DNA of 64,000 bases from an uncultured Acidobacteriaceae bacterium (GCA_963822025.1 CAWGFW010000002.1:23068-87067), one strand, 5' to 3'. Counted from the stretch's first letter, positions 12,502 through 60,708 are shown. The notes: generated by a model not told the origin, from the letters alone. A program made the numbers and translations.

Positions 12502-14652
12502 TTATGTCTGAATAATGCGCGGAGTGATGAAGAAAATCAGTTCCTGGTTGGTCGTCGTCACCGTGCGATGCTTGAACAGGTTGCCGAGGTACGGGATGTC
12601 GCCGAGCAGCGGCACCTGTGATACGTTGAGCGAGTTGTTGGTCTGAATCACACCGCCGATCACCACCGTGCCTCCATCTGTAACCAGCACCTGCGTGGTG
12701 GCCTGCTGGGTGATCAGTTCCGGGTTGCCCAGACTGTCTTCCTGTCCGAAGTTCGGCAGAGTGTTTTCCACATCCACGTTGAGGAAGATTGTTCCTTCCG
12801 ACGTGATCTGCGGAGTTACCGTCAGCCGAAGAAAAGCATCGACATAGGTAGCGGTCGCAGGAGAGCCGATCGACGCCGCGGTCATGATCGGAATCTTGAC
12901 GCCCTGCTTCACCACCGCCTGAATGTTGTTCTGGGTGACTACTCGCGGACGGGAGAGAATCTTCAGCAGGCCGCGAGACTCGGCCATGGTGAGAATCATG
13001 TCGATCCGCATGTTGTTGGTTGCGTTTACAAATTGCAGACCGCTGGTCGGCCCGACTGCGCCCAGGTTCGAGAACAGAGGAACCGTCGTTCCGGTCGAAG
13101 GCGTGCCGCCAACCGGATATAAAGGATTGGGAACCGAGCCACCGCCCACAACGATCGGCGATTGCCCCACCCCGCCTACGCCGCCCACGCCGGTCGTGCC
13201 ATTGCCCCAGCCTAGGCCAAGCTGAACGCCTATGTCGCGCGCAAAGCTGCGGGTGGCCGCCACGACGCGGGCTTCAATTTCGACTTCCTGCGTCTTGCGA
13301 TCCATCTGCTGGATGATGCGGTCGATTTGCGGCAGCACCGCTGGAATGTCGTTAACGATCAGCGAATTGGTACGTTCGTCCGCCACCACGTCGCCGCGCT
13401 GGCTCAGGAATTTCTTGATCGGCAGCAACAGGTCCTTGGCATGCGCGTAACTCAGGAAGCGCGTGATGCTGACTTTATCCACCGCCAGCGCCTCGGCATC
13501 GATTTGCGCGCGCCGTCCCTCGGCTTCCTTGCGCAGGGTTTCGACGGTTGCAATGCGCAGGACGTTGCCGTCCAGTTGCCGCGAGAGATCGTTGTTCTTG
13601 AGCACGATGTCGAGCGCTTGATCCCACGGCACGTCATCGAGCACGATGGTCAGATTGCCATGAATCATAGGGTCGAGAACGACGTTCAATCCGCTGATCT
13701 CGTGAATCAGGCGGAAGAAATCTTTCAAATCCACATCCTTGAGATTGACCGAGATCGGCTCGCCGGTATATTTTGCTCCGCGGTCTGCCGGCTTCTGTTC
13801 CATCTGGACCTTCTGCTCGGCTGCTAAATTGACGGCGGGAGTGATCGGCACCGGAGTGCTGCTACCCTGGCCCATGGCTGCGTTGCTGTTGCTGGCCACG
13901 AGTTCTGCCGCGGTCTTATCGGCAAAACGGCTGGCTGCTTCCTGCGATTTCGCCGCAGGTTCGGAGGCCGCAGGCGGAGTCGCATTGTCATCTTTCTTGG
14001 GCGAGAACTTGGGCTCGATAAAGGCAAAGTCCGACGGCTTTTCCGGGCTTGCCGCCGCGGCAGGCGCGGGTGTTACGACCGTTGCGGTTGCCGCCGGAGC
14101 CGGAGTTACTGGAGACGCGGTAGCCGAGGTCATCGGAGCCGAAACTGGAGCGGAAACCGGCGTCGGTCGCGGCGCGGCCGAGGCCACTTGCTTCAGGGAC
14201 GGTGTCCCCGCCTGGCGATGAGCCACGATGGCGTCGTGAATCGTAAGAACGAAGCTGCCGTCCGGGCCGGCGACCAGATCATGCGGGCGGCCAGTGGAAT
14301 CGCTTGTGGCCAGATCGACGACCACGCGCGTGCTCGGCGAAACTCCGCCGCTCATGCCCACGCGGACGTTTTTCACGCCGTCGCTGCCCACGCTGATGTG
14401 GCTCTGTCCCGTCGCCATCACGGTGTTGGGAAAATCGACGACGATGCGTGCCGGGGACTCGAGCGTCGTCAGTTTGGGCGCCAATTGGCCCGTCGCTCTG
14501 AACTCCACCCGCAATCCGTCCTGGCTGTGCGCGACCTCGAGCCTCTGCAAGCGAGCGCTCGCCGCCACCTCTTTGCCCGTCGTGTCAGCCGCGGCCGCGA
14601 TCAGAACGAACGCCAGCAGCGAAACCGTGAGTCCCAGCAGTTGCTTTCGCAT
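12502..14652 (-). CDS. pilQ: type IV pilus secretin PilQ
   Basis: 716 aa. Signal peptide, AMIN-like N-domain, Ala/Pro-rich linker, secretin N-domains, and a C-terminal secretin core (..VPLLGDIPYLGNLF...ELIFFITPRII). Last gene of pilMNOPQ. Confidence 0.9.
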   Translation of the reverse strand: MRKQLLGLTVSLLAFVLIAAAADTTGKEVAASARLQRLEVAHSQDGLRVEFRATGQLAPKLTTLESPARIVVDFPNTVMATGQSHISVGSDGVKNVRVGMSGGVSPSTRVVVDLATSDSTGRPHDLVAGPDGSFVLTIHDAIVAHRQAGTPSLKQVASAAPRPTPVSAPVSAPMTSATASPVTPAPAATATVVTPAPAAAASPEKPSDFAFIEPKFSPKKDDNATPPAASEPAAKSQEAASRFADKTAAELVASNSNAAMGQGSSTPVPITPAVNLAAEQKVQMEQKPADRGAKYTGEPISVNLKDVDLKDFFRLIHEISGLNVVLDPMIHGNLTIVLDDVPWDQALDIVLKNNDLSRQLDGNVLRIATVETLRKEAEGRRAQIDAEALAVDKVSITRFLSYAHAKDLLLPIKKFLSQRGDVVADERTNSLIVNDIPAVLPQIDRIIQQMDRKTQEVEIEARVVAATRSFARDIGVQLGLGWGNGTTGVGGVGGVGQSPIVVGGGSVPNPLYPVGGTPSTGTTVPLFSNLGAVGPTSGLQFVNATNNMRIDMILTMAESRGLLKILSRPRVVTQNNIQAVVKQGVKIPIMTAASIGSPATATYVDAFLRLTVTPQITSEGTIFLNVDVENTLPNFGQEDSLGNPELITQQATTQVLVTDGGTVVIGGVIQTNNSLNVSQVPLLGDIPYLGNLFKHRTVTTTNQELIFFITPRIIQT

Positions 14653-14693
14653 TTCCCTGTCTCCCCATGCGAGGCCATTTTCGCCTCCATGTG

Positions 14694-14735
14694 CTTCCTG
14701 GAATGTGTTTCCTGGAATCTGTTTCCCGGAAATAT
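14694..14735. repeat. three tandem 14-bp repeats, each with a palindromic TTCCNGGAA core
   Basis: CTTCCTGGAATGTG / TTTCCTGGAATCTG / TTTCCCGGAAATAT read directly in the pilP-pilQ intergenic spacer. Confidence 0.75.
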
Positions 14736-14759
14736 TGCCTCGAACTTTCGCCCCCAGCC

Positions 14760-15518
14760 CTACACCGCCGGAGTCGTAATCTTCTTCACCACTTCCCGTG
14801 TAAAGCTCTTGCCCAGCCGGTCCTGCAGCGTTTCCTGGAAAACGATGGAGTCGCCCGTGATCTTCATCACGTAGCCGTTGAACACCGGATCGTTTTCCCG
14901 CAAGAAATACGCTTTATTCAGGCCGTTGCTGACGACCGCGATGAATCCGTTCTGCGACCGCACCACGCCCCGCAGGTTGATGCCACCGATCTCCAGGCAC
15001 TTCTTACCCGTGCTGCAACCGGAACCGCCCGCATGGCTCACCACCGGACTGAGAAAAGGATCACGCCGTCCGTTCGCGCTGTTCTTGCTGTCCGGGGTCA
15101 CCGGCTGCTCCGTCTCCGCCTGCTCCGCGTCCTCGCCTTCCCCAGCGCCCTTCGCGGGTTCGGCCGCGGCTACCGCAGCTTTCGCAGTTTCGACAGCCTT
15201 GGGCGGCGCGCTCGGACGGGTCCCGACGATCGCCACATGTCTGGCACCCGGCTTTCTGGCACCTGAGTGTTTCGCGCTCATCGGACCGGCGCCCGTCGCG
15301 ACTTTCATCGGCGCGGCATGCACGCGCATCGGGCTGGTCGTTGCCGGAGCACTCTGTTCGAGGGCTTCGTTCGACGCAGCCGTGTTCTTGCTCGACACCG
15401 CGTTCATGGTGTTGCGCGTGTTCTGGATAATGCTGGGACTCTGCGCCCAGGCCATGCCCCCGGCCAGCGCCGAAACCAGTATTGCCGTCTTCATCGTGTT
15501 TGCTGGCTTCCTGTTCAT
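14760..15518 (-). CDS. pilP: PilP-like pilus assembly protein
   Basis: Lies between pilO and pilQ. Signal peptide (MKTAILVSALAGGMAWAQ), long low-complexity Ala/Pro/Ser region, and a beta-rich C-terminal ~90 aa. Start set at ATG 15518 (AAGGGGGA SD) rather than 15584, which avoids a 56-nt overlap with pilO. Confidence 0.65.
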   Translation of the reverse strand: MNRKPANTMKTAILVSALAGGMAWAQSPSIIQNTRNTMNAVSSKNTAASNEALEQSAPATTSPMRVHAAPMKVATGAGPMSAKHSGARKPGARHVAIVGTRPSAPPKAVETAKAAVAAAEPAKGAGEGEDAEQAETEQPVTPDSKNSANGRRDPFLSPVVSHAGGSGCSTGKKCLEIGGINLRGVVRSQNGFIAVVSNGLNKAYFLRENDPVFNGYVMKITGDSIVFQETLQDRLGKSFTREVVKKITTPAV

Positions 15519-15528
15519 CCTGTCCCCC

Positions 15529-16161
15529 TTACTTCTTTGCCGGTGGTCCGGGCTTCCCTGCCGGCGTTCCCGGATCCAGATCATGACTGAAATAGGTGGT
15601 GGTCAGACAAGTCGCCACCACGCTCTCGCCCGGCGCATATTGATAGGTATGCTTCGCCTTCGCATCGCTCGGCTTGCGTGTGGTCGATACCGCCAGATTC
15701 GAAACGTTGACGATGCGCTCCACTTTTCCCAGCCGGTCGAAGAACCCCAGCATCGAATAAAATGGTCCGTCGAACTCCACTTCAAACGGCACTTCCGTAT
15801 AAAACTCCTTCGCAATATAAGGCTTCGCTGTGTAGCGGCGGATTTCAATGCCCGACTTGCGCGCTTCTCCGCTCACCATGCGCATGAAATTATCGACTTC
15901 TTTTTCATCGGGTACGATGCGCCGCTCGATTTCCAGTTGCTGCTTCAAGCTCGCCAGCTGCCGGTCCATATCCGCCAGCTTCGGCTTATAGGCTTCGAGC
16001 TCCGCGTTCTCGCGTAATTTCGATTGCAGCTTGACCCGCGCCGCATCGTTCTGGTCGCGCTGCGTCTTATACACCGTGTAGTAGAGGCCGCCCGTGATCA
16101 CGGCCGCCCCCAGCACCAGCACTCCCAGCAGCTTCACACCTGTCAATTCGCCAAGATTCAT
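15529..16161 (-). CDS. pilO: type IV pilus assembly protein PilO
   Basis: 210 aa. Single N-terminal TM segment, coiled coil, then a ferredoxin-like C-domain. Position in the operon supports the call. Confidence 0.8.
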   Translation of the reverse strand: MNLGELTGVKLLGVLVLGAAVITGGLYYTVYKTQRDQNDAARVKLQSKLRENAELEAYKPKLADMDRQLASLKQQLEIERRIVPDEKEVDNFMRMVSGEARKSGIEIRRYTAKPYIAKEFYTEVPFEVEFDGPFYSMLGFFDRLGKVERIVNVSNLAVSTTRKPSDAKAKHTYQYAPGESVVATCLTTTYFSHDLDPGTPAGKPGPPAKK

Positions 16162-16175
16162 AAGAGGTTCCGCCT

Positions 16176-16763
16176 TTACGACTTCGCCTTTTCGCAGGTG
16201 AGCGTGAACTGGAATGCCTGCATGTCCTTCACGCCCTCGTCCTGATAACTTTCTTTGATCTCGATGTTGCGGAAGAATCCTGTCTTTTGCAGGTTGGTAA
16301 TCAGGTTGGCGACCGCATCGCTCGACAGCGCCGTCCCATCGATGGCCACATTCGCTCCCTGGTCCTGCATGCTGTTCAACCAGACCGCCTCGGTGCCGTT
16401 CACCGTGTCGGCAAGCATCGACAGCAAGCTGACCGGGCCGGTCTGGTCTTTACGCAGCTGGTCAATCACATCGACCCGCCGCTTGTAAGATTCGGCTTGT
16501 TTCTGCCGCTCCAGATACTTGACCTTGATGTCGGCCAGGGTGCGATTCTTCTGCTCTGCCGCGCGGGCCTGCACATCGATCGACTTCTTTTCCCGATCGA
16601 GCTGGTACCAGTAGGCCGCATTGACCGCGCCCGCAATCAGCAAGACCACTGCCACCTGCAGCACCGGTCCGCCCAGGTTGCCGAGATCGAAGCTCGGCAT
16701 GTTGATCGCCGGGCCCTTCTTGCCTTTCGGTTTTGGGGATCCCAACAGATTGATTCGGATCAT
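16176..16763 (-). CDS. pilN: type IV pilus assembly protein PilN
   Basis: 195 aa. Conserved MIRINLL N-terminus, one TM segment and a coiled coil. Start overlaps the pilM stop by 4 nt. Confidence 0.85.
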   Translation of the reverse strand: MIRINLLGSPKPKGKKGPAINMPSFDLGNLGGPVLQVAVVLLIAGAVNAAYWYQLDREKKSIDVQARAAEQKNRTLADIKVKYLERQKQAESYKRRVDVIDQLRKDQTGPVSLLSMLADTVNGTEAVWLNSMQDQGANVAIDGTALSSDAVANLITNLQKTGFFRNIEIKESYQDEGVKDMQAFQFTLTCEKAKS

Positions 16764-17815
16764 AGCTTTTCAAAGCTCCTCAGGGCCAAACCCACCGCCA
16801 CCGCCAACTGGCCGGCATTCTGTTCGACCAGTTCCGCCCCGGCGCCCTCTGCCGGCGCCAGAACTTTCTGGAACGGATTGAACAACTCGACCGGCATCGA
16901 GAACTCCTGCCGCAAAGCTTCCACCAGTCCCGGAACCTTTGCCGATCCTCCCGCCAGATAAATCTTCTCGATGTGCTCGCCTGCCGCGCTGGCGCGGAAG
17001 AAGTCAAATGTCTTCTGGATTTCCAGCACGATTATTTCCGTCACCTGTTGCAGGATGGGCGTCTTCGCGTCGTCCTGCACCGTGCCCACCTTGCGCCCCA
17101 GCTTCAGCGACTCCGCATCATCAAAACTCAAATCCAGTTCTTTCTGCAGCGAATCGGTGTACTGGTGCCCGCCCACGGAAACGTCGCGCGGGAAGAGCGG
17201 CGTCGTGCCCTTCACGATGTTGATGTTCATCACGCTCGCGCCCAGGTTGAGCAGCGCCACCACCTGCGTTGGAGCCGGCTCGTAATTGAACTCGTAGCAG
17301 TTCTGCAAAGCCAGCGCGTCGATATCCACAATAGCCGGAGTCTTGCCCGCCATCGAGAGTACGTTGGTGTAGTTCAGAATCTTGTCTTTCTTCACGGCCA
17401 CCAGCAGCACGTCCATCGTCGGACTGCTCGCGTCGTCGGAAAGAATCTGATAGTCGAGGTTCACGTCAGCGAGATCAAACGGAATGTGCTGCGCCGCTTC
17501 TTTCTGAATGGTCTCGGCCAGTTCCTGATCGCTCATCGAGGGCAACGAAATTTTCTTCACGATCACCGAGTGCCCGCTGACCGCCGTCGCCACTGCCTTC
17601 GACTTGATCATCGTGTCCGTAAACAGCTTGGCAATGGCTGCCGAAACCGTGCCGGAATCGACAATCATCGAATCGACAACGATGTCGGGCGCGATCGGCT
17701 CCAGGCCGAGATGCGCCACCTCGATTCCCGTGCGTGTTCTCCTGAGCTCGACGGCCTTGATGCTCGATGAGCCTACATCCAGACCCACTATCGTTTTCGA
17801 TCCCATTCCAAACAT
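16760..17815 (-). CDS. pilM: type IV pilus assembly protein PilM
   Basis: 351 aa actin-like ATPase fold (..VGLDVGSSSIKAVEL.., ..YLAGG.A...GL). First structural gene of the operon. Confidence 0.92.
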   Translation of the reverse strand: MFGMGSKTIVGLDVGSSSIKAVELRRTRTGIEVAHLGLEPIAPDIVVDSMIVDSGTVSAAIAKLFTDTMIKSKAVATAVSGHSVIVKKISLPSMSDQELAETIQKEAAQHIPFDLADVNLDYQILSDDASSPTMDVLLVAVKKDKILNYTNVLSMAGKTPAIVDIDALALQNCYEFNYEPAPTQVVALLNLGASVMNINIVKGTTPLFPRDVSVGGHQYTDSLQKELDLSFDDAESLKLGRKVGTVQDDAKTPILQQVTEIIVLEIQKTFDFFRASAAGEHIEKIYLAGGSAKVPGLVEALRQEFSMPVELFNPFQKVLAPAEGAGAELVEQNAGQLAVAVGLALRSFEKL

Positions 17816-18535: not shown

Positions 18536-19543
18536 TTACAAATCCGCAATTCTCTGCCGCCGTTCGCAACTGCCGTTAGCATCCAGCCAGTTAAGCAGCG
18601 CACGCACGCTACCGCGCGCTAGCGCAATCGCGCAATCGGCAGCTCCGTAATAAACATTGATGGTGTCGCCATCTGCATCCATGGTGTAGCCACAGGGGAA
18701 CACCACATCGTCAACATCGCCGTGGAGTTCGTATGGAGCCTCGGGTCCAAAGATCCAGGAGTCTCCCCGCAGCAGGCATTTTTCCGGATTCTGAAGATCG
18801 AAAAGCGCCAATCCCAAACGATAGAGGCAGCCCGAAGGCGTGTGCCGTACGCCGTGGTAAAAGACCAGCCATCCCCTTGAAGTTTCGATGGGTGGAGGAG
18901 ATAGCCCGATCTTATTTGCATCCCACCAGGCGCCGCGGCGAGCTTCCAGCATCAGCCTATGCCTCCCCCAATACCGCAGGTCGGGAGAATAAGAAATCCA
19001 CATGTGGGCTCCGAGCGCCGTCATCGGGCGGTGGATGAGCGCCCAGCATCCATCGATTCTCCGCGGCAAGAGCGCCGAGTCTTTGTCGTCTGGCGGCATG
19101 ATCACGCCGTAGCGCTCAAAACTCCGGAAGTCTTTGGTCAGCGCCAAGGACACTCCGGGCCCTCCGCGCGAGTAAGAAGTATAAGTCACCACGTATTGCT
19201 GCAGCTCGGGCACAAACGTGATCCGCGGATCCTCAATGCCCCAGAGCTCTTCCGGAAAATGCTGCGCGTCGGGCATCAAGGTTGGTTCGCGGTCGATTTG
19301 CCAGCCGTCGACCCCATTCTTGGAGCGGGCGGCGCAAAGATGCGATAAGCCGCGACGGTCTTCGACACGGCAAAGCAGCAATGTCGTTCCATCGGCTAAC
19401 AGCGTCGCGCCAGCATTGAACACACTGTTAATTGAGTACGGCCAATCCTTCCGCGTGAGGATGGGGTTGGCCGCGTGACGTACAAGCAAAGTTGAATAGT
19501 GCGTGTTTTCGACATTGGCCAGAGTTGTTTCGGGAGTAGTCAT
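18536..19543 (-). CDS. GH130 family beta-mannoside phosphorylase/glycosidase-like protein
   Basis: 335 aa. ..NPIL...DWPY..NSVFNAGA......T.LL.RVED..G.S.L..A.S.NG..W.. and a five-bladed-propeller-like layout, as I recall for GH130. Confidence 0.8.
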   Translation of the reverse strand: MTTPETTLANVENTHYSTLLVRHAANPILTRKDWPYSINSVFNAGATLLADGTTLLLCRVEDRRGLSHLCAARSKNGVDGWQIDREPTLMPDAQHFPEELWGIEDPRITFVPELQQYVVTYTSYSRGGPGVSLALTKDFRSFERYGVIMPPDDKDSALLPRRIDGCWALIHRPMTALGAHMWISYSPDLRYWGRHRLMLEARRGAWWDANKIGLSPPPIETSRGWLVFYHGVRHTPSGCLYRLGLALFDLQNPEKCLLRGDSWIFGPEAPYELHGDVDDVVFPCGYTMDADGDTINVYYGAADCAIALARGSVRALLNWLDANGSCERRQRIADL

Positions 19544-19550
19544 GAATGAA

Positions 19551-21929
19551 TCAGCCTTTCCTTGGGCGCTCGGAATTTTGTATCGCCCGCATTTCCAGAA
19601 GTGCCATCAAAAACGACAGGGTTGATTCTGCTCCCTCATTCTGGTTGGCGCGCTCCGGATGCAAGCCGTCCCGGCAACCCCCGGTGATTGCGTCGTAGAG
19701 AGGGATTTGGAGATCGTTGTTGCCAAGAAACCAGTTGAAGACCCACCAGGACTCCTGGCGCCAGCGGACGTCGCCAGTTACGCGATAAGCTTCGAGACAT
19801 GCGGAGACCGCGCCAGCAGCCTCAATCGGCTGTTGATCGAAACGCGCCTTTTCACCGCCTTGACGATAGAAGCCTTGTGACCCGATAGGCACGAAATGCT
19901 TTTGGCTTTCGCAACGCTGCTCCTGCAGCAGCCAATCGAGAGCCTCGAGACCATCTGAGATCATGCGATCGTCGGAACAGGCGGACCCCACGACCAGCAT
20001 CGCTTGCGGCAATCGCGCGTTGCCGTAGGCCACGACATTTTCGAACCACTTCCAATCGGGCCGACGGATCGACTCATACATTTCGAGCAATCGTCGACCG
20101 AGCACCGATCTGATCTTTTGCGCGTCCCGATCTCCCGGATAGGAATTGAGATACTCCTGAATTCCAAGCAAACTATAGGCGGCGGCGCGCGGACTATAGA
20201 GTTTCACGGCTGTGGGAAGCGAAAACTCGAACAGGCGCCCTGCAGCGCTCCTCAATGCTTGATTGTCGGATCGGCCTAAGATCGTCCCCAAGCTCCACAA
20301 CGCGCGGCCGTGGCAGTCTTCGGAACCTACCGTTTCATTCCAGCGGCGATCATAGCCGAGAAAGTTTCGAAATCTGCCGGTTGCAGCATCGAACGCATGC
20401 TCGAGAAAGGACAAATAGCGGGAAGAGAAATCGGGGCAATTGGGGTCCGCCTCGCCGAATCCCGTCTTCCGCATTTGCGCCAGCATTACCGCGAAAATCA
20501 GCGCCCGGGCGTTGTCATCGCTGGTATAGCCTTCCGCTCGGTTGGGGATGGTAAAGATCGCGTGTTGCAAAATTCCCGTGTCATCCGTGAGCGCGTTCAC
20601 ATGATCCAGGTTCAACTCCGGCAGTTGATCGAACACTTTGGGAATGGCGCGAGCCGAGAACTGAACCCGCGGGGTCACCATGCGGTCGCTGCGAACGCGA
20701 CTGAAGCTTTCCATGTAGCCTTGCGCCACTTTTCCCCAGACCATGTCGCGCGCGAATGTATAAGCACGTTTGCGCATGGCATGGCGGATGGCAGGCGTAT
20801 TCAGCAGTTCGATCGTCTTGTTAGCGATCGCGTCGGGATTTTGGAACGGGACCAGCGCACCCCGGCGGTCGTCCAGCAACTCGATCGCGTGCCAGTAGGG
20901 GGTCGAAATGATTGCCTTGCCCGCACCCATGGCATAGGCAAGCGTTCCGGACACTACCTGTTCCTCGTAGCGATAAGGCGTGATGTAGATATCGGCCGCG
21001 CCAATAAACGCAGCCATTTCTTCGGGAGTGGCAAAGCGATCGTGAAAGATCACCTGGGCTTCCACCCCAATTTCCTTCGCCAAGGCCTTCAAACTTTCTC
21101 GATACTTGTCCCCCTCGCGACGGAGAATGTGAGGATGGGTCGCACCGGAAACAATATAGGCAACGTTGTTGTGCCTGGCCAAAATCTGCGGCAGCGCTTG
21201 AATTACATTTTCAATTCCCTTGTTCGGCGAGAGCAGGCCAAACGTCAGCAGCACCGCTTTTCCTTCCACGCCAAAGCGATCCTTGTAGAAATTGGGATCG
21301 AGGAAGGGCAGATCCGGAACACCATGCGGCACCATGTCGATTTTGCTGCCCGGCACTTTAAAGATTTCCTGCAGGAACTGCGAGGAAAGCTCACTCATCA
21401 CGATCAGACGATCGGAAAGCTCTGCGATCTCTTTCATGACGGCGCGCTGCTCGGGATTAGGCTCGCGTAAAACGGTGTGCAGCGTAGTCACCACCGGCAT
21501 CTTCAAACCGCGCAACAGGTGCAGAATGTGGCCTCCGGCTGGGCCTCCGAAAATTCCATACTCGTGCTGCAAACACACCATGTCGATATTGTTGAAGTTT
21601 AAGAATGACGACGCATCCTCGTATGACTTCACCTCATCCTGGTCGAGCGACCAGCGCACCGGCGCGGGATACTCGTATCCTTGCACCGTGTCGTTTACGG
21701 GCAGCGCCAGCAATTGAGTGGTTTCATACTCAGCTGCTATCGCCGCGCACAAGTCTGTAGTAAATGTCGCTATACCGCACTGTCGCGGAAGATAATTCCC
21801 GATCACCGCGATGCGACTCGGCAGCGACGGCTTTGGCTGGACTCGCGGACGAGGCAACTGCGTCACCATGGCGCGTGCAACCATATCTCCCAAGAGTCCA
21901 TCGGGAAACACGGTTATAGGTAGCGCCAT
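19551..21929 (-). CDS. GT4 glycosyltransferase fused to a ~360-aa C-terminal (alpha/alpha)-barrel-like domain
   Basis: 792 aa. The N-terminal ~420 aa are GT-B/GT4-like (..IAVIGNYLPRQCGIATFT.., ..E.FGL...EA.A.G-type region). The C-terminal half is helical with ..GYTSDDNARAL.., ..HGRALWSLG... Stop lies 7 nt before the GH130 start. Confidence 0.8.
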   Translation of the reverse strand: MALPITVFPDGLLGDMVARAMVTQLPRPRVQPKPSLPSRIAVIGNYLPRQCGIATFTTDLCAAIAAEYETTQLLALPVNDTVQGYEYPAPVRWSLDQDEVKSYEDASSFLNFNNIDMVCLQHEYGIFGGPAGGHILHLLRGLKMPVVTTLHTVLREPNPEQRAVMKEIAELSDRLIVMSELSSQFLQEIFKVPGSKIDMVPHGVPDLPFLDPNFYKDRFGVEGKAVLLTFGLLSPNKGIENVIQALPQILARHNNVAYIVSGATHPHILRREGDKYRESLKALAKEIGVEAQVIFHDRFATPEEMAAFIGAADIYITPYRYEEQVVSGTLAYAMGAGKAIISTPYWHAIELLDDRRGALVPFQNPDAIANKTIELLNTPAIRHAMRKRAYTFARDMVWGKVAQGYMESFSRVRSDRMVTPRVQFSARAIPKVFDQLPELNLDHVNALTDDTGILQHAIFTIPNRAEGYTSDDNARALIFAVMLAQMRKTGFGEADPNCPDFSSRYLSFLEHAFDAATGRFRNFLGYDRRWNETVGSEDCHGRALWSLGTILGRSDNQALRSAAGRLFEFSLPTAVKLYSPRAAAYSLLGIQEYLNSYPGDRDAQKIRSVLGRRLLEMYESIRRPDWKWFENVVAYGNARLPQAMLVVGSACSDDRMISDGLEALDWLLQEQRCESQKHFVPIGSQGFYRQGGEKARFDQQPIEAAGAVSACLEAYRVTGDVRWRQESWWVFNWFLGNNDLQIPLYDAITGGCRDGLHPERANQNEGAESTLSFLMALLEMRAIQNSERPRKG

Positions 21930-28316: not shown

Positions 28317-28739
28317 TTACCACGTCGAATAGGCTTTGCCGTCGCTGCCAACCTGGTTCGAGCCGCTATGAACTCCTATTATCCCGCCGGGCTCGGTTTG
28401 GTCGAGTGACATGATCACGTCATCTCCCGATTCTGTCTCCCAAGTATCGGGATTGCCGGTGATGTCATCCGGAATTGACTTGATGTAACCGGCCGATTTC
28501 AGGTCGGCGAGCGACTGCGGCGCCTTTTGTTTGTCTTGCGCGTATTGGTAGATCATGTAATTCAGCGTTTCCAGATTCTTGCGGAGATTGTCTTCACGAG
28601 CCCGCATCAGGCTATGACTGTAAAGCGGCATGGCCACGCCCAGCAGAATGAGAATGATGCTGATCACCACCATCATCTCGATCAGCGTGAAGCCTTTGCT
28701 TCGTCCTGCGGTGCTGCGTCTTGTCCTTCGTCGGTTCAT
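28317..28739 (-). CDS. GspG/PulG-like pseudopilin (paralogue 3)
   Basis: 140 aa. Prepilin class III signal ..KGFTLIEMMVVISIILILLGVAMP... C-terminal ..GVHSGSNQVGSDGKAYSTW is shared with paralogue 2. Confidence 0.85.
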   Translation of the reverse strand: MNRRRTRRSTAGRSKGFTLIEMMVVISIILILLGVAMPLYSHSLMRAREDNLRKNLETLNYMIYQYAQDKQKAPQSLADLKSAGYIKSIPDDITGNPDTWETESGDDVIMSLDQTEPGGIIGVHSGSNQVGSDGKAYSTW

Positions 28740-28864
28740 CCCGTGTCGGTCGCTCGATCAACTGGCCGATGTTGAATATGATGCACTTTTCGGTGCGACG
28801 GAAACCACGACCTCCAATCGCGCCCGTCCAATCAATGTCCTAAACTTCGCATTTCTCAAACGCT

Positions 28865-29314
28865 CTAATGCGTCCAACTCGAATAGGCGGTGCCGTCGCT
28901 GGAGAGTTCATTCGAACCGCTGTGCACACTGCCGATGCCGGTATTGTTCGGGTCCCACGCGTTTTCCGGATCTTCTGGTTCCGTCTGCCACGTCGTCGGC
29001 GTACCAGTGATGTCATCCGGGATGAATTTGATGTATCCGGGCACGAGATCGTCGAGCGACTGCGGTGCATGCTTTTTATCGAGCGAATACTCCTGAATGA
29101 CCTTATTGAGGGTGGTCAGGTTCTGATGAAGCTTGGCCTCTTTGGCGCGCACGATGCTCTGGTTATACATAGGCAGCGCGATCGCAATCAGCACCAGGAT
29201 CAGGCTGATCACGACCACCATCTCGATCAGCGTGAAGCCACGGCTGGGGAGTTTGCGCGCATTGGCTTCAGCATTTCTGAGTTTGGAAATGCCAGCTTTG
29301 GAGGGAAATTTCAT
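28865..29314 (-). CDS. GspG/PulG-like pseudopilin (paralogue 2)
   Basis: 149 aa. ..RGFTLIEMVVVISLILVLIAIALP.. and tail ..SVHSGSNELSSDGTAYSSW. The ATG abuts the stop of the upstream gene. Confidence 0.85.
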   Translation of the reverse strand: MKFPSKAGISKLRNAEANARKLPSRGFTLIEMVVVISLILVLIAIALPMYNQSIVRAKEAKLHQNLTTLNKVIQEYSLDKKHAPQSLDDLVPGYIKFIPDDITGTPTTWQTEPEDPENAWDPNNTGIGSVHSGSNELSSDGTAYSSWTH

Positions 29315-29791
29315 CTACCAATCCTTGTATTTCGTGCCGTCCAAAGCAGTCTGGTCTGACTTGGTGTAAACGTCGAAAACGTTCTGCCCGCCCCACGAGG
29401 TCGAATCTTTGTCGTCTTGCATCGACCGCAATCCCCATTCGTCGTGGGTCATCGGATCGACCGGAACCTTACGCAGAAACTTCAATTTCTTGCCAGCAAC
29501 GTCGACACCCTTCACCAGCGTATCGAGATCGGGAGGATAGCCCTGGCTATCCACCTTGATCTGAAACGCGCCCATGTCGGCCGCGGCTTTGTAGCGATCG
29601 ATGGCGTCGCGGATCATCCAGAGGTCGTAGCGCAGTTCGTGCTCCCGCTCGCGGGCAACGGCATTCTTGGCAACTGGAATTGCCATTCCAACCAGGATCG
29701 CCACGATCGCCGTTGCCACGATCAGCTCGATCAGCGTGAAGCCGCGCTGGCCAGTTGCCCCGGCCTTTTTCGTTCTTGTTGATTGAGTCAT
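29315..29791 (-). CDS. GspG/PulG-like major pseudopilin (paralogue 1)
   Basis: 158 aa. ..QRGFTLIELIVATAIVAILVGMAIP.., then ..RE.ELR..L..IR.AID.Y.. and ..YP..L..LV.. typical of T2SS GspG. Confidence 0.88.
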   Translation of the reverse strand: MTQSTRTKKAGATGQRGFTLIELIVATAIVAILVGMAIPVAKNAVAREREHELRYDLWMIRDAIDRYKAAADMGAFQIKVDSQGYPPDLDTLVKGVDVAGKKLKFLRKVPVDPMTHDEWGLRSMQDDKDSTSWGGQNVFDVYTKSDQTALDGTKYKDW

Positions 29792-29872
29792 AACATCCGC
29801 TGCTCGTTATGCCCGCGCTGTCTGCATTCTGCGGGCACATCCATAGATCCAGCTCCGCTCACGATGACAGCG

Positions 29873-32218
29873 CTATTGAATGGTGATTGCCGCTTGCGCT
29901 CCGCTCATGGCAATCGGCTGCATCGCCGGATCGCGCGCGCCGCCGCGCGTGATGGTCAAGGCAGACTGGCCTGCCGCTTTGGCCATGAAGGTGAGGGTCA
30001 CCACTGCGCCCTGCCCGGAAACGCCGCCGGCGCCCGGAGGCCGCGACGCTGTAATTTGCATCGTGCCCGTCGTCGTATCCTCGCGATGCGCCACGGTTAC
30101 TATTTGCCCATCCTGCGAGAGGAAGCCTCCGTTCGAAACGTTGACCACCTCCAACTTATTCGGATCGTAGTTGAGTTGTACGGGCACGGAATAAACGTTC
30201 TGGCCGCCCGAGAGCATGACATTCACGGTGAACGTCGAACCCTTGGGTTGATTCAGGGTAGGCGGATCAAAGAGGAATGTGCCACCTCTCGCACTAGCCC
30301 CAGCCGGGTTCGGTGGAGTCGGAGATGACAAAGTAAAATTCTGCGGAGTGGGGCTCTGCATCGCTGCCTGCGGCTGCATCGGCGAAGCCGGCGGGACTGC
30401 GGACGAGGTTGGCGAACCAGCCGGAGCAGATGTGGCTGGCGTCGGCGCCTTGGCATTCGCCAGCCGGAGCGACAGCGCATTGGCCGTGCCCACGTCGAGC
30501 ATCTCATTGCTGTCACGAGAAAATTCAGGCCCGCGAATAATGTGCGGGATCAGAACAAAGATCACTTCGTTCGAAGAGTGATCCGACGTGTCCTGGGCAA
30601 AGAGATACTTCAAGATCGGAATCGAAGCGAGGCCAGGAATTCCGGTGAGCGACTTGGTCTTCGAATCCTCCATCATGCCGCCGAGCACGCTGACTTCGCC
30701 ATCTTTCAAGCGGATATCGTGTTCAATCTTGCGCTGGCCGATGACCGGCTGGCTGATGCCGCCGATGCTGACGTAGGAGTCGACTTCCGAGACATCCATC
30801 GACAGCTTCAATGAAATCTCGCGGCCCGCGTGTACCCGCGGAGTAATGTCGATATTCACGCCAACGTCGAGATATTGAAATTGAGTATTAACCAGCGGGT
30901 TGATGCCGACGCCGCCGATACCCGGCTGAAACGATCCGGTAGCCACCGGCACGCGCTCGCCGATTTTCAAAGAAGCCTTCTGGCCATCGAGGGCGCGAAT
31001 CTGCGGATTCTGAATAACTTTGGTGTCATTATCCGCCATCAACGCCGTGGCCGAAGCTTGCGGAATGGTCACCTGGAAATCGGTGGCGTTGAGATTGGCA
31101 ATCGTATTCAGGCTGATGCCGTTCGTCGTTGTAGAGGTAGTGCTCGAGGTAGTAGTGGTAGTCGAAGTGGTCGACCCGGTAGTACTGATATTCGGCTGCA
31201 ATTGCACCGAAACGCTGGTCGGCGGATTGATGCCGAGGGTGTGCGATTTATCGCGGCTCACCTGCATGACCGCGATTTCAATCATGACCTCAGGCTTTGC
31301 CTTGTCGAGATCGTCGACCAGTTTCTGCGCCAGGGCTACCTGGTCGGGCGTGCCGCGCACTACGATCGCTCCCTGCGAGGGCAATTGCTGAATACGGCTC
31401 ACTTCGAGAATAGTGCGCATCGCGTTGACTACGTCCTGCAACTCGGTTGGCTGGGAGAGATTCGAAAGATAAAAAGTTTTGATGACGTTTTGTTCCAGCT
31501 CTTTGCGTTTGGCAGGATTGTCTTGCGCGATAAAAATCGTATTCGGCGTCACCGGACGCCAAAAGGTTTTGGTCTCAAAGGAAATGATCTCGAGCGCCTC
31601 TTGCAGCGTGACGTTATTGAGTTCGACATGCACCTGGCGCGGCGTGTAATCGGGATCGAAAAGAACGTTGATGCCGGCGAGTTTGCCGACGGTTTCGTAG
31701 ATTACATTCGACTTTTCCGTCACCTTGAGGGTGATAGGCACATTCGAAATCGGAGCCAGTTCCACTGGTCCCTGCGCCGACTCCAACCGCCGCCGCAACG
31801 CGGTCGGAGCTGCCGCTTGCGGCACGGGAGTTTGCGCATCCTTGATCGCTTGCTGCGTCCGCTTCAGTTCCTGGAGCGCGATGAAAGACGATGGATCGGT
31901 TTCGATCGCCTTCTGGAATTCGACCACCGCCTCGTCGAGTTTGCCGGCATCGCGCAAAGTCTGGCCCCGGTGTACGTGCGATGCCCCAGCCAAAAAGCGC
32001 GTCCGCTCGAAAGCGGTGCGATATCTCAGATCTTTGGGCTTGAGGTTATAAGCTTGTTTGAAATAGTCGAACGCTTGCTCGTAGTTCTGGCGCGCCTCGG
32101 CATCGGTGCCTTTTTCGTAAAGGGCTTTGGCCGAATCGTGACTTTTCCCAGCGAGCGGAAGCGCCAAACAGAGCAACACTAGAACAGACAAAGCCGGAGG
32201 GATCAGGCGTCTCATCAA
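29873..32218 (-). CDS. secretin with N-terminal TPR-like region and C-terminal cohesin-like domain
   Basis: 781 aa. Signal peptide, TPR-like helices (aa ~30-130), secretin N-domains, a Thr/Ser run, the secretin core (..GIPGLASIPILKYLF...EVIFVLIPHIIR), a Pro/Ala/Ser linker, then a ~140-aa beta-sandwich resembling cohesin (GSTFTVNVML..VPVQLNYDPNKLEVVNV..). Confidence 0.88.
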   Translation of the reverse strand: MMRRLIPPALSVLVLLCLALPLAGKSHDSAKALYEKGTDAEARQNYEQAFDYFKQAYNLKPKDLRYRTAFERTRFLAGASHVHRGQTLRDAGKLDEAVVEFQKAIETDPSSFIALQELKRTQQAIKDAQTPVPQAAAPTALRRRLESAQGPVELAPISNVPITLKVTEKSNVIYETVGKLAGINVLFDPDYTPRQVHVELNNVTLQEALEIISFETKTFWRPVTPNTIFIAQDNPAKRKELEQNVIKTFYLSNLSQPTELQDVVNAMRTILEVSRIQQLPSQGAIVVRGTPDQVALAQKLVDDLDKAKPEVMIEIAVMQVSRDKSHTLGINPPTSVSVQLQPNISTTGSTTSTTTTTSSTTSTTTNGISLNTIANLNATDFQVTIPQASATALMADNDTKVIQNPQIRALDGQKASLKIGERVPVATGSFQPGIGGVGINPLVNTQFQYLDVGVNIDITPRVHAGREISLKLSMDVSEVDSYVSIGGISQPVIGQRKIEHDIRLKDGEVSVLGGMMEDSKTKSLTGIPGLASIPILKYLFAQDTSDHSSNEVIFVLIPHIIRGPEFSRDSNEMLDVGTANALSLRLANAKAPTPATSAPAGSPTSSAVPPASPMQPQAAMQSPTPQNFTLSSPTPPNPAGASARGGTFLFDPPTLNQPKGSTFTVNVMLSGGQNVYSVPVQLNYDPNKLEVVNVSNGGFLSQDGQIVTVAHREDTTTGTMQITASRPPGAGGVSGQGAVVTLTFMAKAAGQSALTITRGGARDPAMQPIAMSGAQAAITIQ

Positions 32219-32525
32219 GCAATCCTCATAAAAATTTTCTTCGTCCGGCCGTGGCGCCCGGCCAGACTTATCCCGGCAAGACGCATCGAACCACCCGAAA
32301 AAACAAACCGGTCAGGCATCTCCGGGGCGGTTACGTGCAAAAAGTACCGGAAATTCGGATTATAGCATCGCAGCAACGGGCGCCCGAAGTGATTGGTAGG
32401 GCGATGTTTACACTCATTAGTACAGGTACTGACGGACAGCTCACAGATCGCAGAAGAGCAAACCCTTTCTTGCGCGATGCCAAGAACTCTCGAAAAAGAA
32501 CCCTGCGTTATCAGCAGTTGCTTTT

Positions 32526-32553
32526 CCTGCGACCTGTCACCTGACACCTGCCC
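32526..32553 (+). repeat. period-7 tandem tract (CCTGCGA CCTGTCA CCTGACA CCTGCCC)
   Basis: Four contiguous heptamers ending 23 nt before the smpB ATG. Confidence 0.6.
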
Positions 32554-32576
32554 CGTGTTACTTTCTTTTCAGCACC

Positions 32577-59589: not shown

Positions 59590-60708
59590 ATGAAATATCT
59601 CGACGAATACCGCGACCATCGTATCGCGCGCGCTTTGGCTGCGGAGATTGCGCTGTCGACGACTCAGCCGTGGGTGCTGATGGAGATTTGCGGCGGCCAG
59701 ACTCACACCATCATGCGCTACGGCTTGGACGAGTTGCTGCCCCGTGGAATTGAAATCGTACACGGCCCGGGATGCCCGGTGTGCGTCACTCCGCTTGAGA
59801 CTGTCGATAAGGCGATCGCGTTGGCGCTGCGGCCGGATGTCATTCTGGTTTCTTACGGAGACATGCTGCGGGTGCCGGGGTCGCATTTCGATCTGTTAAG
59901 GGCGAAGGCGCAAGGCGCGGATGTTCGCATTGCGTATTCGCCGATGGAAGCGGTGAAGATTGCCCGCGCGAATCCGGAGCGCAAAGTTGTGTTTCTGGCG
60001 ATCGGATTCGAGACTACGGCTCCAGCAAATGCGACGGCTGCCTGGCAAGCGCGGAGCGAAGGGCTCACCAATTTTTCTTTGCTGGTTTCGCATGTGCTGG
60101 TGCCGCCGGCGATCCGTGCGTTGATGGTTTCGCAGACCAACCGGGTGCAGGGTTTTATTGCGCCCGGACATGTGTGCACAGTGATGGGATGCGGCGAGTA
60201 TGAGTCGCTGGTGCGCGATTTTCGCGTGCCGATTGTGGTGGGAGGATTCGAGCCGGTAGATATTTTGGCAGCGGTGCTGATGCTGGTTCGCCAACTGGAA
60301 GCGGGGGAGGCGCGGCTGGAGAATCAGTACGTGCGCTCGGTGAGCTATCAGGGGAATCTTCCGGCGCAGCGACTGGTGGCTGAGGTATTTGAAATTGGCG
60401 ATCAGAAGTGGCGCGGGATCGGGCTGATTCCGCAGAGTGGTTTGCGGTTGCGCGAGGAATACGCGGCGTTTGATGCGAATCGTGTTTTTGACTTGGGCGA
60501 GATGACGGTGGACGAACCCGCGGAGTGCATCAGCGCGCAGGTTTTGCAAGGTTTAAAGAAGCCGACGGATTGCGCTGCCTTTGGCATGCGCTGCACACCG
60601 GAGAATCCGTTGGGAGCACCGATGGTTTCAACCGAAGGGGCATGCGCGGCGTATTACCACTATCGGCGGCATGCGGTCGCAAAACAGGAGAAACTGTGTC
60701 AGCTATAA
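59590..60708 (+). CDS. hypD: hydrogenase maturation protein HypD
   Basis: 372 aa. MKYLDEYRD, ..MEICGGQTH.., ..GPGCPVCV.., and ..C....GAPMVS.EG.C..Y... Confidence 0.95.

What the first reader, a model, noticed from the sequence alone, without database searches (positions are those of the whole stretch)
28317..32218. Orphan secretin + three GspG-like pseudopilins with no ATPase, platform or peptidase genes
**Seen:**
- Four co-directional minus-strand genes form the cluster.
- A 781-aa secretin is followed by an 81-nt gap and a 158-aa pseudopilin.
- Then an abutting TAG/ATG junction leads to a 149-aa pseudopilin.
- Then a 125-nt gap leads to a 140-aa pseudopilin.
- All three small proteins have the G/FTLIE class III signal and GspG-like bodies.
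- Two share the tail (V)HSGSN..SDG.AYS.W and the third ends DGTKYKDW.
- They therefore look like major-pseudopilin paralogues, not a GspH/I/J/K minor set.
- Both flanks are visible: smpB lies divergently on one side, DoxX and an E1 dehydrogenase on the other.
- No GspE/PilB, GspF/PilC, GspL/M/C or prepilin peptidase is present.

**Established:** T2SS and T4P need these components.

**Inference:**
- This would be a stripped-down secretin-pseudopilus module that must borrow a motor in trans.
- The candidate donor is the pilMNOPQ system 12 kb away, which already has its own secretin.
- This is the best candidate in the window for an undescribed envelope system.
Basis: partly seen in the sequence, partly recalled or inferred. 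Interest (0 to 1): 0.7.

Follow-up and report, generated by a model that had tools for sequence, protein, structure and literature searches.

The report
Outer half of a split secretion machine
The secretin and three small pilin genes are real and conserved, but they are most likely the outer-membrane and filament half of a two-locus, type II secretion-like machine of soil Acidobacteria, whose own motor genes lie elsewhere in the genome.

Summary
In detail: four co-directional minus-strand genes, with no ATPase, platform or prepilin peptidase anywhere in the 64 kb window.

The layout is conserved. In Terriglobales genome contigs, smpB<-|->secretin-p1-p2 was present in 76 of 76 loci with enough flank on each side. 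In more distant metagenome contigs, the pilins were present in 58 of 61 and smpB in 55 of 56. Motor genes lay within 10 kb in only 1 of 160 loci.

The "motor-less module that borrows the T4aP motor" reading is not supported:
- One Terriglobales genome (L067) has lolA-gspF-gspE-pilM/N/O/P-like-X just across smpB.
- Nine other contigs carry the same locus. The contigs whose origin is recorded are Terriglobales or Acidobacteria. None has a secretin or a p1/p2 pilin.
- In a distant relative (L082) everything is one operon beside smpB: gspF-gspE-M-N-O-p1-p2-P-secretin.
- The partner-locus M/N/O/P proteins match that operon, not the window's T4aP PilMNOP.

Every component falls below the curated GspD/G/E/F, PilQ/PilB and MshL cut-offs. 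The secretin carries an N-terminal TPR and a C-terminal cohesin domain. I read it as an uncharacterised, T2SS-like variant of the type IV filament superfamily.

The partner locus could not be checked in this genome.

The parts
29873..32218 (-). Secretin gene. 781 aa from the TTG start; the likely true start is the ATG at 32215, giving 780 aa. Layout: signal peptide, TPR region, N-domain(s), secretin barrel, a ~90-residue Pro/Ala/Ser/Thr/Gln-rich linker, then a cohesin domain.
   Evidence: ORF. Pfam Secretin 1.7e-39, Secretin_N, TPR_1/TPR_2, Cohesin 3.7e-13. Best NCBIfam hit is GspD at 156 bits (cut-off 351), then MshL 124 and PilQ 107. Best PDB sequence matches are T2SS GspD chains such as 5wln.
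31877..31978 (-). TPR repeat that passes the Pfam cut-off (secretin residues 81-114). Helical repeats probably span about residues 25-125.
   Evidence: TPR_1 39.5 bits, TPR_2 39.9 bits, TPR_11 30.4 bits. The low-confidence AF2 secondary structure shows helices over 40-128.
31292..31438 (-). Secretin_N (N1/N3-type) periplasmic domain, residues 261-309.
30533..31045 (-). Secretin channel domain, residues 392-562.
   Evidence: PF00263, 135.5 bits against a cut-off of 27.5.
29945..30253 (-). C-terminal cohesin domain, residues 656-758.
   Evidence: PF00963, 50.3 bits against 24.1. The domain is recorded in all 120 closest homologues. It is also present in a 32%-identical relative, P0223.
29315..29791 (-). 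pil1, a p1-family prepilin of 158 aa. The leader is 17 residues, followed by G|FTLIEL. It ends ...ALDGTKYKDW.
   Evidence: Orthologues lie directly after the secretin in 76 of 76 genome loci and 58 of 61 metagenome loci that have enough flank. The L082 operon orthologue is 55% identical.
28865..29314 (-). pil2, a p2-family prepilin of 149 aa. Its start abuts the pil1 stop codon.
   Evidence: The p1 and p2 family profiles are homologous over their full length (hhalign probability 99.9%). The p2 profile weakly hits N-terminally truncated GspG crystal structures.
28317..28739 (-). pil3, a second p2-family prepilin of 140 aa. It is a lineage-specific tandem duplicate of pil2 (53% identity).
   Evidence: Two p2-type copies occur in 48 of 69 Terriglobales loci, but in only 1 of 48 more distant loci.
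32219..32576 (.). Divergent intergenic region between the secretin and smpB. It is the presumed promoter region of the secretin-pilin operon.
   Evidence: Divergent smpB adjacency is conserved in 76 of 76 and 55 of 56 loci. No consensus sigma-70 site was found here, so the promoter role is an inference.

Best explanation
**What it is.** The four genes encode the outer-membrane channel and the filament subunits of a dedicated, T2SS-like type IV filament machine. In Terriglobales its genes are split between two loci.

**This locus.**
- The secretin has the layout TPR - N-domains - secretin barrel - long linker - cohesin.
- There are two families of GspG-like prepilins: p1 (pil1) and p2 (pil2, plus its recent duplicate pil3).

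**The partner locus in related genomes.** lolA-gspF-gspE(MshEN)-PilM-like-PilN-like-PilO-like-PilP-like-X.
- It supplies the assembly ATPase, the inner-membrane platform and the alignment complex. The PilP-like protein would contact the secretin's N-terminal domains.
- X is a fourth pilin-like protein that lacks Glu5.

**How it would work.** A prepilin peptidase encoded elsewhere would cleave the leaders. The motor would then polymerise p1/p2 into a short pseudopilus or pilus under the secretin.

**Likely role.** The best profile matches are GspD, GspG and GspF, and neither locus carries a PilT. The most likely role is therefore piston-type secretion of folded periplasmic proteins.

**Shown versus inferred.**
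- Shown: gene content, conservation, complementarity of the two loci, and their fusion in relatives.
- Inferred: presence of the partner locus in this particular genome, the physical interactions, and the substrate.
For: **Conservation of this locus.**
- smpB<-|->Q-p1-p2 is present in 76 of 76 Terriglobales genome loci. In more distant metagenome loci the pilins are present in 58 of 61 and smpB in 55 of 56. Counts are among loci with enough flank.
- The genes are intact in these related loci, at 69-96% secretin identity among the Terriglobales genomes. The one exception seen is a truncated secretin in a conspecific contig, L175.

**The partner locus.**
- Motor genes lie within 10 kb in only 1 of 160 loci. 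That one, L067, has gspF, gspE, PilM/N/O/P-like genes and X just across smpB, M17 and lolA.
- Nine more contigs carry the same lolA-F-E-M-N-O-P-X locus with no secretin and no p1/p2 pilins: L085-L087 and L179-L184.

**Fusion in distant relatives.**
- L082 has smpB<-|->gspF-gspE-M-N-O-p1-p2-P-secretin in one operon.
- L170 has p2-P-secretin.

**Orthology.**
- Partner-locus M, N, O and P match the L082 operon proteins at E = 2e-18, 3e-16, 5e-11 and 5e-10.
- GspE is 65% identical between the two.
- The window's T4aP PilM gives only E >= 3e-4, and its PilN, PilO and PilP-like protein give no significant match.
- The window secretin matches the L082 secretin at E = 7e-115.

**Profile affinities.** The best hits are GspD, GspG and GspF. 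GspE and PilB score about equally.
Against: - The partner locus was not seen in this genome. The window is 64 kb of a 1.25 Mb contig and the rest could not be read. Attempts to match contigs by length or by accession prefix failed.
- Genome-level co-occurrence is directly shown in only one Terriglobales genome (L067), plus one fused operon (L082) and a partial one (L170).
- No component reaches any curated T2SS cut-off, and no GspH-K homologues were found. 'T2SS-like' is therefore a resemblance, not a membership.
- In three partner loci (L085, L179, L180), T4a-type pilin genes and an ABC transporter lie a few kb upstream. Some cross-talk with the T4aP system cannot be excluded.
- The substrate and function are untested.
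- Both AF2 models were too poor to use.
Confidence: 0.7

Rival explanations
1. The locus is a self-contained secretin-pseudopilus module with no motor of its own. Its pilins are assembled in trans by the T4aP machinery: the pilMNOPQ genes 12 kb away plus PilB/PilC elsewhere. This would resemble the cyanobacterial Hps pseudopilins, which are encoded away from any ATPase.
For: - No ATPase, platform or peptidase lies in the window.
- The motor-less arrangement is the conserved rule.
- Pseudopilin genes encoded away from any motor have a precedent in the hps locus (PMC12475490).
- T4a-type pilin genes lie near the partner locus in three genomes.
Against: - A motor/platform/alignment locus that lacks exactly a secretin and the p1/p2 pilins exists in related contigs.
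- It is fused with Q-p1-p2 in L082.
- Its M/N/O/P proteins are unrelated to the window's T4aP PilMNOP.
- The T4aP cluster already has its own AMIN-type PilQ.
Confidence: 0.1
2. Same two-locus machine, different output. It would build a surface pilus or adhesin, or export exopolysaccharide slime through the secretin, instead of secreting folded proteins.
For: - The alignment proteins are of the PilM/N/O/P type, not GspL/M/C.
- The prepilin leaders are long, at 14-26 residues.
- The ATPase scores as well against PilB as against GspE.
- Secretins have been tied to slime export in myxobacteria and cyanobacteria (PMC12475490).
- A glycosyltransferase follows the operon in L082.
Against: - The best profile hits for the secretin, pilins and platform are GspD, GspG and GspF.
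- The only pilin globular-domain matches are to GspG.
- No polysaccharide synthesis genes are conserved next to either locus in Terriglobales.
Confidence: 0.2
3. The three small proteins are minor pilins of the neighbouring T4aP system, and the secretin is a redundant second PilQ.
For: - The locus is close to pilMNOPQ, about 10.5 kb from the nearest gene.
- All three proteins are class III signal peptide proteins.
Against: - The best matches are to GspG, not to T4aP minor pilins.
- The three genes always travel with this TPR-cohesin secretin and with smpB, not with pilMNOPQ.
- In L082 they sit inside a gspF-gspE operon.
- The two secretins are only distantly related. The window's PilQ matches the L082 secretin at 21% identity.
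Confidence: 0.03
4. A decaying remnant of a former complete operon, no longer functional.
For: - Motor genes are absent locally.
- One conspecific contig (L175) has an N-terminally truncated secretin of 631 aa.
Against: - The ORFs are intact and full length in about 150 lineages, down to roughly 35-45% secretin identity.
- Identical pil1 copies occur in several conspecific assemblies.
Confidence: 0.01

Closest known systems
Canonical type II secretion system (GspC-M of Proteobacteria)
   Same: - It has a secretin whose best profile and PDB matches are GspD.
- Its short prepilins match GspG best.
- Its platform matches GspF best.
- It has a GspE/PilB-family ATPase.
- Neither locus carries a retraction ATPase.
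   Different: - Every component is below the curated equivalog cut-off.
- No GspH/I/J/K was found.
- Separate PilM-, PilN-, PilO- and PilP-like proteins take the place of GspL/M/C.
- The genes are split over two loci, whereas 96.5% of T2SS are encoded in a single locus (PMC4793230).
- The secretin carries TPR and cohesin fusions.
Type IVa pilus machine (PilMNOPQ + PilB/C/T), including the copy at window 12502-17815
   Same: - Both have a PilM/N/O/P-type alignment complex and a secretin.
- Both are encoded at several loci, as 99% of T4P are.
- The ATPase scores 541 bits against PilB.
   Different: - The M/N/O/P proteins hit the Pfam and NCBIfam models only below threshold.
- They show no significant similarity to the window's PilMNOP.
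- The secretin has no AMIN domain, and PilQ is only its third-best match.
- The pilins are GspG-like, not PilA-like.
- Neither locus carries a PilT.
Atypical or 'generic' type IV filament systems outside Proteobacteria (for example the Chlamydia and Leptospira T2SS-like systems; Denise et al. 2019, PMC6668835)
   Same: - It has the key trio of ATPase, platform and pilin, plus a secretin.
- It fails the specific T2SS and T4aP models and lacks recognisable minor pseudopilins.
   Different: - The composition differs: PilMNOP-like proteins are present, there is a pilin-like protein X, and the secretin is TPR-secretin-cohesin.
- I found no description of the acidobacterial system.
Cyanobacterial Hps pseudopilins (hpsB-D, H)
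   Same: Pseudopilin genes are encoded away from any assembly ATPase and have been proposed to act through a secretin (PMC12475490).
   Different: - Hps pseudopilins sit among glycosyltransferases and have no secretin of their own.
- Here a dedicated secretin is adjacent and a dedicated motor locus exists in relatives.
- HpsB is only a marginal hit (E = 0.0044).

Membership tests
Secretin superfamily (PF00263) | C-terminal secretin channel domain above the Pfam gathering score | tested here: met
   135.5 bits against a cut-off of 27.5. The sequence aligns to GspD, RcpA, pIV and PilQ chains in the PDB.
Type IV pilin / pseudopilin (class III signal peptide proteins) | Prepilin cleavage/methylation motif G|F(T/S)LxE with Glu5 and a hydrophobic N-terminal helix | tested here: met
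   N_methyl scores 28.9-34.5 bits against 21.2. TIGR02532 scores 27.7-32.3 bits against 16.3. This holds for all three proteins. The motifs are at window positions 28694, 29239 and 29743.
T2SS secretin GspD (TIGR02517 equivalog) | Whole-protein score above the curated cut-off | tested here: not met
   156 bits against a cut-off of 351.35. Only profile positions 301-594 of 600 are matched.
T2SS major pseudopilin GspG (TIGR01710 / Pfam T2SSG) | Score above the cut-off, with the globular T2SSG domain detected | tested here: not met
   - The window proteins score 34.5, 39.0 and 38.5 bits against a cut-off of 88.85.
- They do not hit Pfam T2SSG.
- Only 3 of 16 p2-family and 2 of 20 p1-family members hit T2SSG weakly, with best E-values of 0.0012 and 0.063.
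- The p2 profile hits truncated GspG structures only weakly, for example 3g20 at E = 0.0023.
Canonical T2SS (Gsp) as a system | Minor pseudopilins GspH, I, J and K | tested here: not met
   No GspH-K match above threshold in this locus, in the partner locus or in the fused operon L082. The only other pilin-like protein found is X.
Canonical T2SS (Gsp) as a system | GspE ATPase, GspF platform and GspL/M/C assembly proteins, encoded together with GspD/G | tested here: not met
   - These genes are absent from the window.
- In the partner locus of relatives, GspE scores 533 against 630 and GspF 298 against 424.
- The remaining proteins give only sub-threshold PilM, PilN, PilO or GspM hits.
- The genes are split over two loci.
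Type IVa pilus system | PilQ-type secretin (TIGR02515, often with AMIN domains) and a PilB ATPase above cut-off | tested here: not met
   - PilQ scores 107 bits against 284.35, with no AMIN domain.
- The partner-locus ATPase scores 541 against 675.65 for PilB.
- The true T4aP PilQ, with an AMIN domain, is at 12502-14652.
Type IVa pilus system | Retraction ATPase PilT | not testable with these tools
   No PilT is present in the window or in either locus of the relatives. The rest of the genome could not be read.
MSH pilus | MshL secretin (TIGR02519) above cut-off | tested here: not met
   124.3 bits against 250.2.
Type IV filament superfamily, 'generic' system in the sense of Denise et al. 2019 | ATPase, inner-membrane platform and major pilin, with an optional secretin and prepilin peptidase | tested here: inconclusive
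   The definition is met when both loci are combined in L067, and within the single operon of L082. For this genome only the pilin and secretin parts are visible. The definition itself is quoted.
Cohesin domain (PF00963) | Score above the Pfam gathering cut-off | tested here: met
   50.3 bits against 24.1, over residues 656-758. The fold could not be confirmed because the AF2 model was poor. Binding to a dockerin partner was not tested.

The most novel reading that the evidence does not exclude
This could be the outer half of a separate class of type IV filament machine, conserved in Terriglobales and in more distant relatives of unknown taxonomy. It would be neither a T2SS nor a T4aP by any curated model.

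Its secretin has built-in accessory modules:
- The N-terminal TPR domain could take the place of a pilotin or of a platform-docking protein.
- The C-terminal cohesin domain, on a long flexible linker, could capture dockerin-like partners or substrates at the pore.

If so, it could be a major export route for the hydrolases or surface polymers of one of the most abundant soil phyla.
Probability: 0.3. Interest if true: 0.65.

Novelty: new variant of a known kind. Interest (0 to 1): 0.4.

Why it matters
- Terriglobales and other Acidobacteria are among the most abundant soil bacteria. How they export enzymes and polymers is almost unstudied.
- Automated annotation already labels these genes GspD and GspG. 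However, the system fails every curated T2SS and T4P model, uses PilMNOP-like alignment proteins, is split over two loci and has a TPR-secretin-cohesin fusion.
- Recognising the two loci as one machine gives a concrete target set for genetics in culturable Terriglobales.
- It is also a caution: a seemingly 'orphan' secretin-pilin cluster may simply be one locus of a system encoded at several sites.

Tried and rejected
1. **AlphaFold2 models.** pil1 with 37 sequences gave mean pLDDT 44.7. The secretin with 30 sequences gave 45.7. The permitted alignments were too shallow (at least 77% identity), so neither model could be used for fold search.
2. **Profile searches of the PDB.** The p1 profile matched only the N-terminal helix of assorted pilins. 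The p2 profile gave only weak matches to the GspG body.
3. **Finding the partner locus in this genome or a conspecific one.** The accession prefixes of NCBI GspE hits (CAKYOO, JBPYEW, QIAN) did not match any secretin locus.
4. **Metagenome scan.** A 28-sequence secretin alignment was too divergent to seed the scan. A six-sequence alignment worked.
5. **Literature.** Searches for a description of this system, or of a cohesin-bearing secretin, found nothing specific.
6. **Promoter and terminator scan.** It gave nothing above the shuffle background.
7. **Ideas rejected.** A local rearrangement unique to this genome, a pseudogene, and T4aP minor pilins are all contradicted by conservation and synteny.

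Full report
**1. The observation**

- secretin, 29873-32218, 781 aa from a TTG start. The next codon is ATG, and public gene calls use it (780 aa);
- pil1, 29315-29791, 158 aa;
- pil2, 28865-29314, 149 aa;
- pil3, 28317-28739, 140 aa.

The 81-nt gap, the abutting stop/start junction and the 125-nt gap follow from these coordinates.

The secretin has Pfam Secretin (135.5 bits), Secretin_N, TPR_1/TPR_2 and Cohesin (50.3 bits against a cut-off of 24.1). All three small proteins pass the prepilin motif models.

The flanks are a divergent smpB on one side and DoxX plus an E1 dehydrogenase on the other. pilMNOPQ lies at 12502-17815.

Two tests looked for motor genes in the window:
- A six-frame search for the GspE/PilB Walker A motif found none in the 64 kb.
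- Pfam scans of 44 ORFs found no T2SSE, T2SSF or prepilin peptidase. These covered the large non-nested ORFs, but not every ORF of at least 120 aa.

**2. How the parts classify**

- **Secretin.** The best NCBIfam match is GspD (156 bits, cut-off 351), then MshL (124) and PilQ (107). The best PDB sequence matches are T2SS GspD chains.
- **Pilins.** All three match GspG best, but at 34-39 bits against a cut-off of 88.85. None hits Pfam T2SSG.
- **Family profiles.** Built from many loci, they show two old families, p1 (pil1) and p2 (pil2, pil3). The two are homologous over their full length (hhalign probability 99.9%, 28% identity).
- **Support for a GspG-like body.** The p2 profile weakly picks out N-terminally truncated GspG crystal structures (3g20 at E = 0.0023; 1t92, 2kep, 3fu1, 3gn9 and 4lw9 more weakly). 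T2SSG is the only pilin globular-domain family that any member touches.

'GspG-like' is therefore a fair description but not a demonstrated membership.

pil3 is a recent tandem duplicate of pil2 (53% identity). Two p2-type copies occur in 48 of 69 Terriglobales loci, but in only 1 of 48 more distant loci.

**3. The arrangement is conserved, not a local accident**

- The window secretin is identical to one on ENA ERZ25039454 contig_177, a 1.25 Mb contig. Named homologues are from Terriglobales.
- A genome scan returned 80 Terriglobales/Acidobacteriaceae loci at 69-96% secretin identity.
- A metagenome scan seeded with more distant secretins returned 80 further loci. These are 40-49% identical to the seed in all but one case, and roughly 35-45% identical to the window.

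| Feature, among loci with enough flank | Genome loci | Metagenome loci |
|---|---|---|
| p1 and p2 directly after the secretin | 76 of 76 | 58 of 61 |
| smpB divergent upstream | 76 of 76 | 55 of 56 |

Motor or alignment genes lie within 10 kb in only 1 of the 160 loci.

One was that orthologous clusters 'always sit inside a complete operon elsewhere'. The other was that the secretin is 'a pseudogene in relatives'.

**4. The cluster is not motor-less**

*The exception.* L067 is a 1.92 Mb contig of a Terriglobales MAG. It carries the following genes on the other strand, just beyond smpB, an M17 peptidase and lolA:
- gspF (402 aa);
- a GspE-family ATPase with an MshEN domain (559 aa);
- PilM-, PilN-, PilO- and PilP-like proteins;
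- a long pilin-like protein, X.

*The same locus elsewhere.* Looking up orthologues of that ATPase gave nine more contigs with the same order, lolA-F-E-M-N-O-P-X: L085-L087 and L179-L184. The contigs whose origin is recorded are Terriglobales or Acidobacteria. None has a secretin or a p1/p2 pilin.

*Fusion in distant relatives.*
- L082 carries a secretin 30% identical to the window's over 795 aligned positions (E = 7e-115). There, everything is one operon, again next to a divergent smpB: gspF-gspE-M-N-O-p1-p2-P-secretin, followed by further genes and X. Its p1 is 55% identical to pil1.
- L170 shows p2-P-secretin.

*Orthology.*

| Comparison | Result |
|---|---|
| Partner-locus M, N, O, P vs L082 operon proteins | E = 2e-18, 3e-16, 5e-11, 5e-10 |
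| Partner-locus GspE vs L082 GspE | 65% identity |
| Window T4aP PilM vs these proteins | best E = 3e-4 |
| Window T4aP PilN, PilO and PilP-like protein vs these proteins | no significant match |

The two Terriglobales loci are therefore the two halves of one system. Each lacks what the other provides.

**5. What kind of system it is**

- In the partner locus, GspF is the best platform match (298 bits against a cut-off of 424).
- The ATPase scores equally against PilB (541) and GspE (533), below both cut-offs.
- The alignment proteins give only sub-threshold PilM, PilN, PilO or GspM hits.
- No GspH-K, no PilT and no prepilin peptidase is present in either locus.
- X has a G|Y...T leader without Glu5, p1-like motifs and a Gly/Pro/Gln-rich tail.

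Canonical T2SS are encoded in a single locus in 96.5% of cases, and few are predicted outside Proteobacteria (PMC4793230). Systems that fail the specific models are termed 'generic' type IV filament systems (PMC6668835).

I found no description of this acidobacterial system or of a cohesin-bearing secretin.

I file it as an uncharacterised T2SS-like variant of the type IV filament superfamily, not as a member of T2SS, T4aP or MSH.

**6. Most likely mechanism**

*Shown:* the composition, the conservation and the linkage of the two loci.

*Inferred:*
- The secretin forms the outer-membrane pore.
- Its N-terminal domains are contacted by the PilP-like protein of the partner locus.
- A prepilin peptidase encoded elsewhere cleaves p1 and p2.
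- The GspE/GspF motor polymerises them into a short filament that drives export through the secretin.

Protein secretion is favoured by the GspD/G/F affinities and by the lack of PilT in either locus. A pilus or polysaccharide-export role is not excluded (PMC12475490).

The roles of the TPR domain (pilotin-like or platform docking) and the cohesin domain (partner capture) are speculation. From my own knowledge of GspD structures, a C-terminal extension would start on the periplasmic side.

**7. Limits**

- I could not read the rest of this genome. The presence of the partner locus here is inferred from relatives, and attempts to find it failed.
- Both AF2 models were unusable.
- In three partner loci, T4a-type pilin genes and an ABC transporter lie a few kb upstream. 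Some relationship with the T4aP system remains possible.
- The taxonomy of the metagenome loci and of L082 is unknown.

**8. Verdict**

The cluster is real, conserved and atypical, but it is most likely one half of a split dedicated machine, not an orphan that borrows the T4aP motor.
- Novelty: a new variant of a known kind.
- Interest: moderate, 0.4.

Noticed in passing
window 28317-28739 (and L081 13540-13899, L171 11116-11475): Public gene calls for this contig and some conspecifics start pil3 at an internal Met, giving 118-119 aa. This cuts off the prepilin leader and the G|FTLIE motif, so the product carries no N_methyl hit. Other assemblies call the full 140 aa.
   Followed up: partly
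L175 2685-4580 (ENA ERZ25039493 contig_38470): A conspecific contig with an identical pil1 has a 631-aa secretin that lacks the N-terminal TPR region. Its upstream genes are unrelated, with no smpB. This could be a rearrangement, an insertion or an assembly break.
   Followed up: no
L085 276-4244; L179 710-4790; L180 3559-6886: A few kb upstream of the lolA-gspF-gspE locus, three contigs carry one or two T4a-type pilin genes. An ABC_tran / ABC2_membrane / ~305-aa gene trio follows them. From memory, this resembles the Myxococcus pilA-pilGHI arrangement. L086 and L087 show no such genes in their 10 kb of upstream flank; L181-L184 have too little upstream flank to tell.
   Followed up: partly
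L168 3742-11877 and L169 3489-11624: A 26%-identical TPR-secretin homologue is followed directly by a gene for a protein of more than 2,712 aa that runs off the contig. A divergent SLT transglycosylase lies upstream. No pilins are adjacent. The giant protein could be a cargo or an adhesin.
   Followed up: no
L185 4322-7412: Another distant secretin homologue (30% identity) has no adjacent pilins. It is followed by a secreted protein that looks CAP/PR-1-like by eye, and preceded by a divergent protein with faint BNR/sortilin-type Pfam hits.
   Followed up: no
L082 12328-15448: In the fused operon, the secretin is followed by a Big_1/TIG Ig-like protein, a 159-aa protein with a signal-peptide-like N-terminus, an SLT lytic transglycosylase, the pilin-like protein X and a GT4 glycosyltransferase. 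These possible accessory genes are not seen next to the Terriglobales loci.
   Followed up: no
window 14760-15584: The 274-aa ORF between pilO and pilQ in the T4aP cluster sits where PilP would be. It has no Pfam hit at E <= 1e-5.
   Followed up: no
window 18536-21929: A 792-aa protein with GT4 and Glycos_transf_1 domains is immediately followed by a GH130 mannoside phosphorylase-like gene. The pair lies between the T4aP cluster and the secretin locus, and the GT4 gene is syntenic in the five conspecific contigs that reach that far.
   Followed up: no
window 59590-61763: HypD and a HypE-like (AIRS) hydrogenase maturation gene lie at the far end of the window.
   Followed up: no
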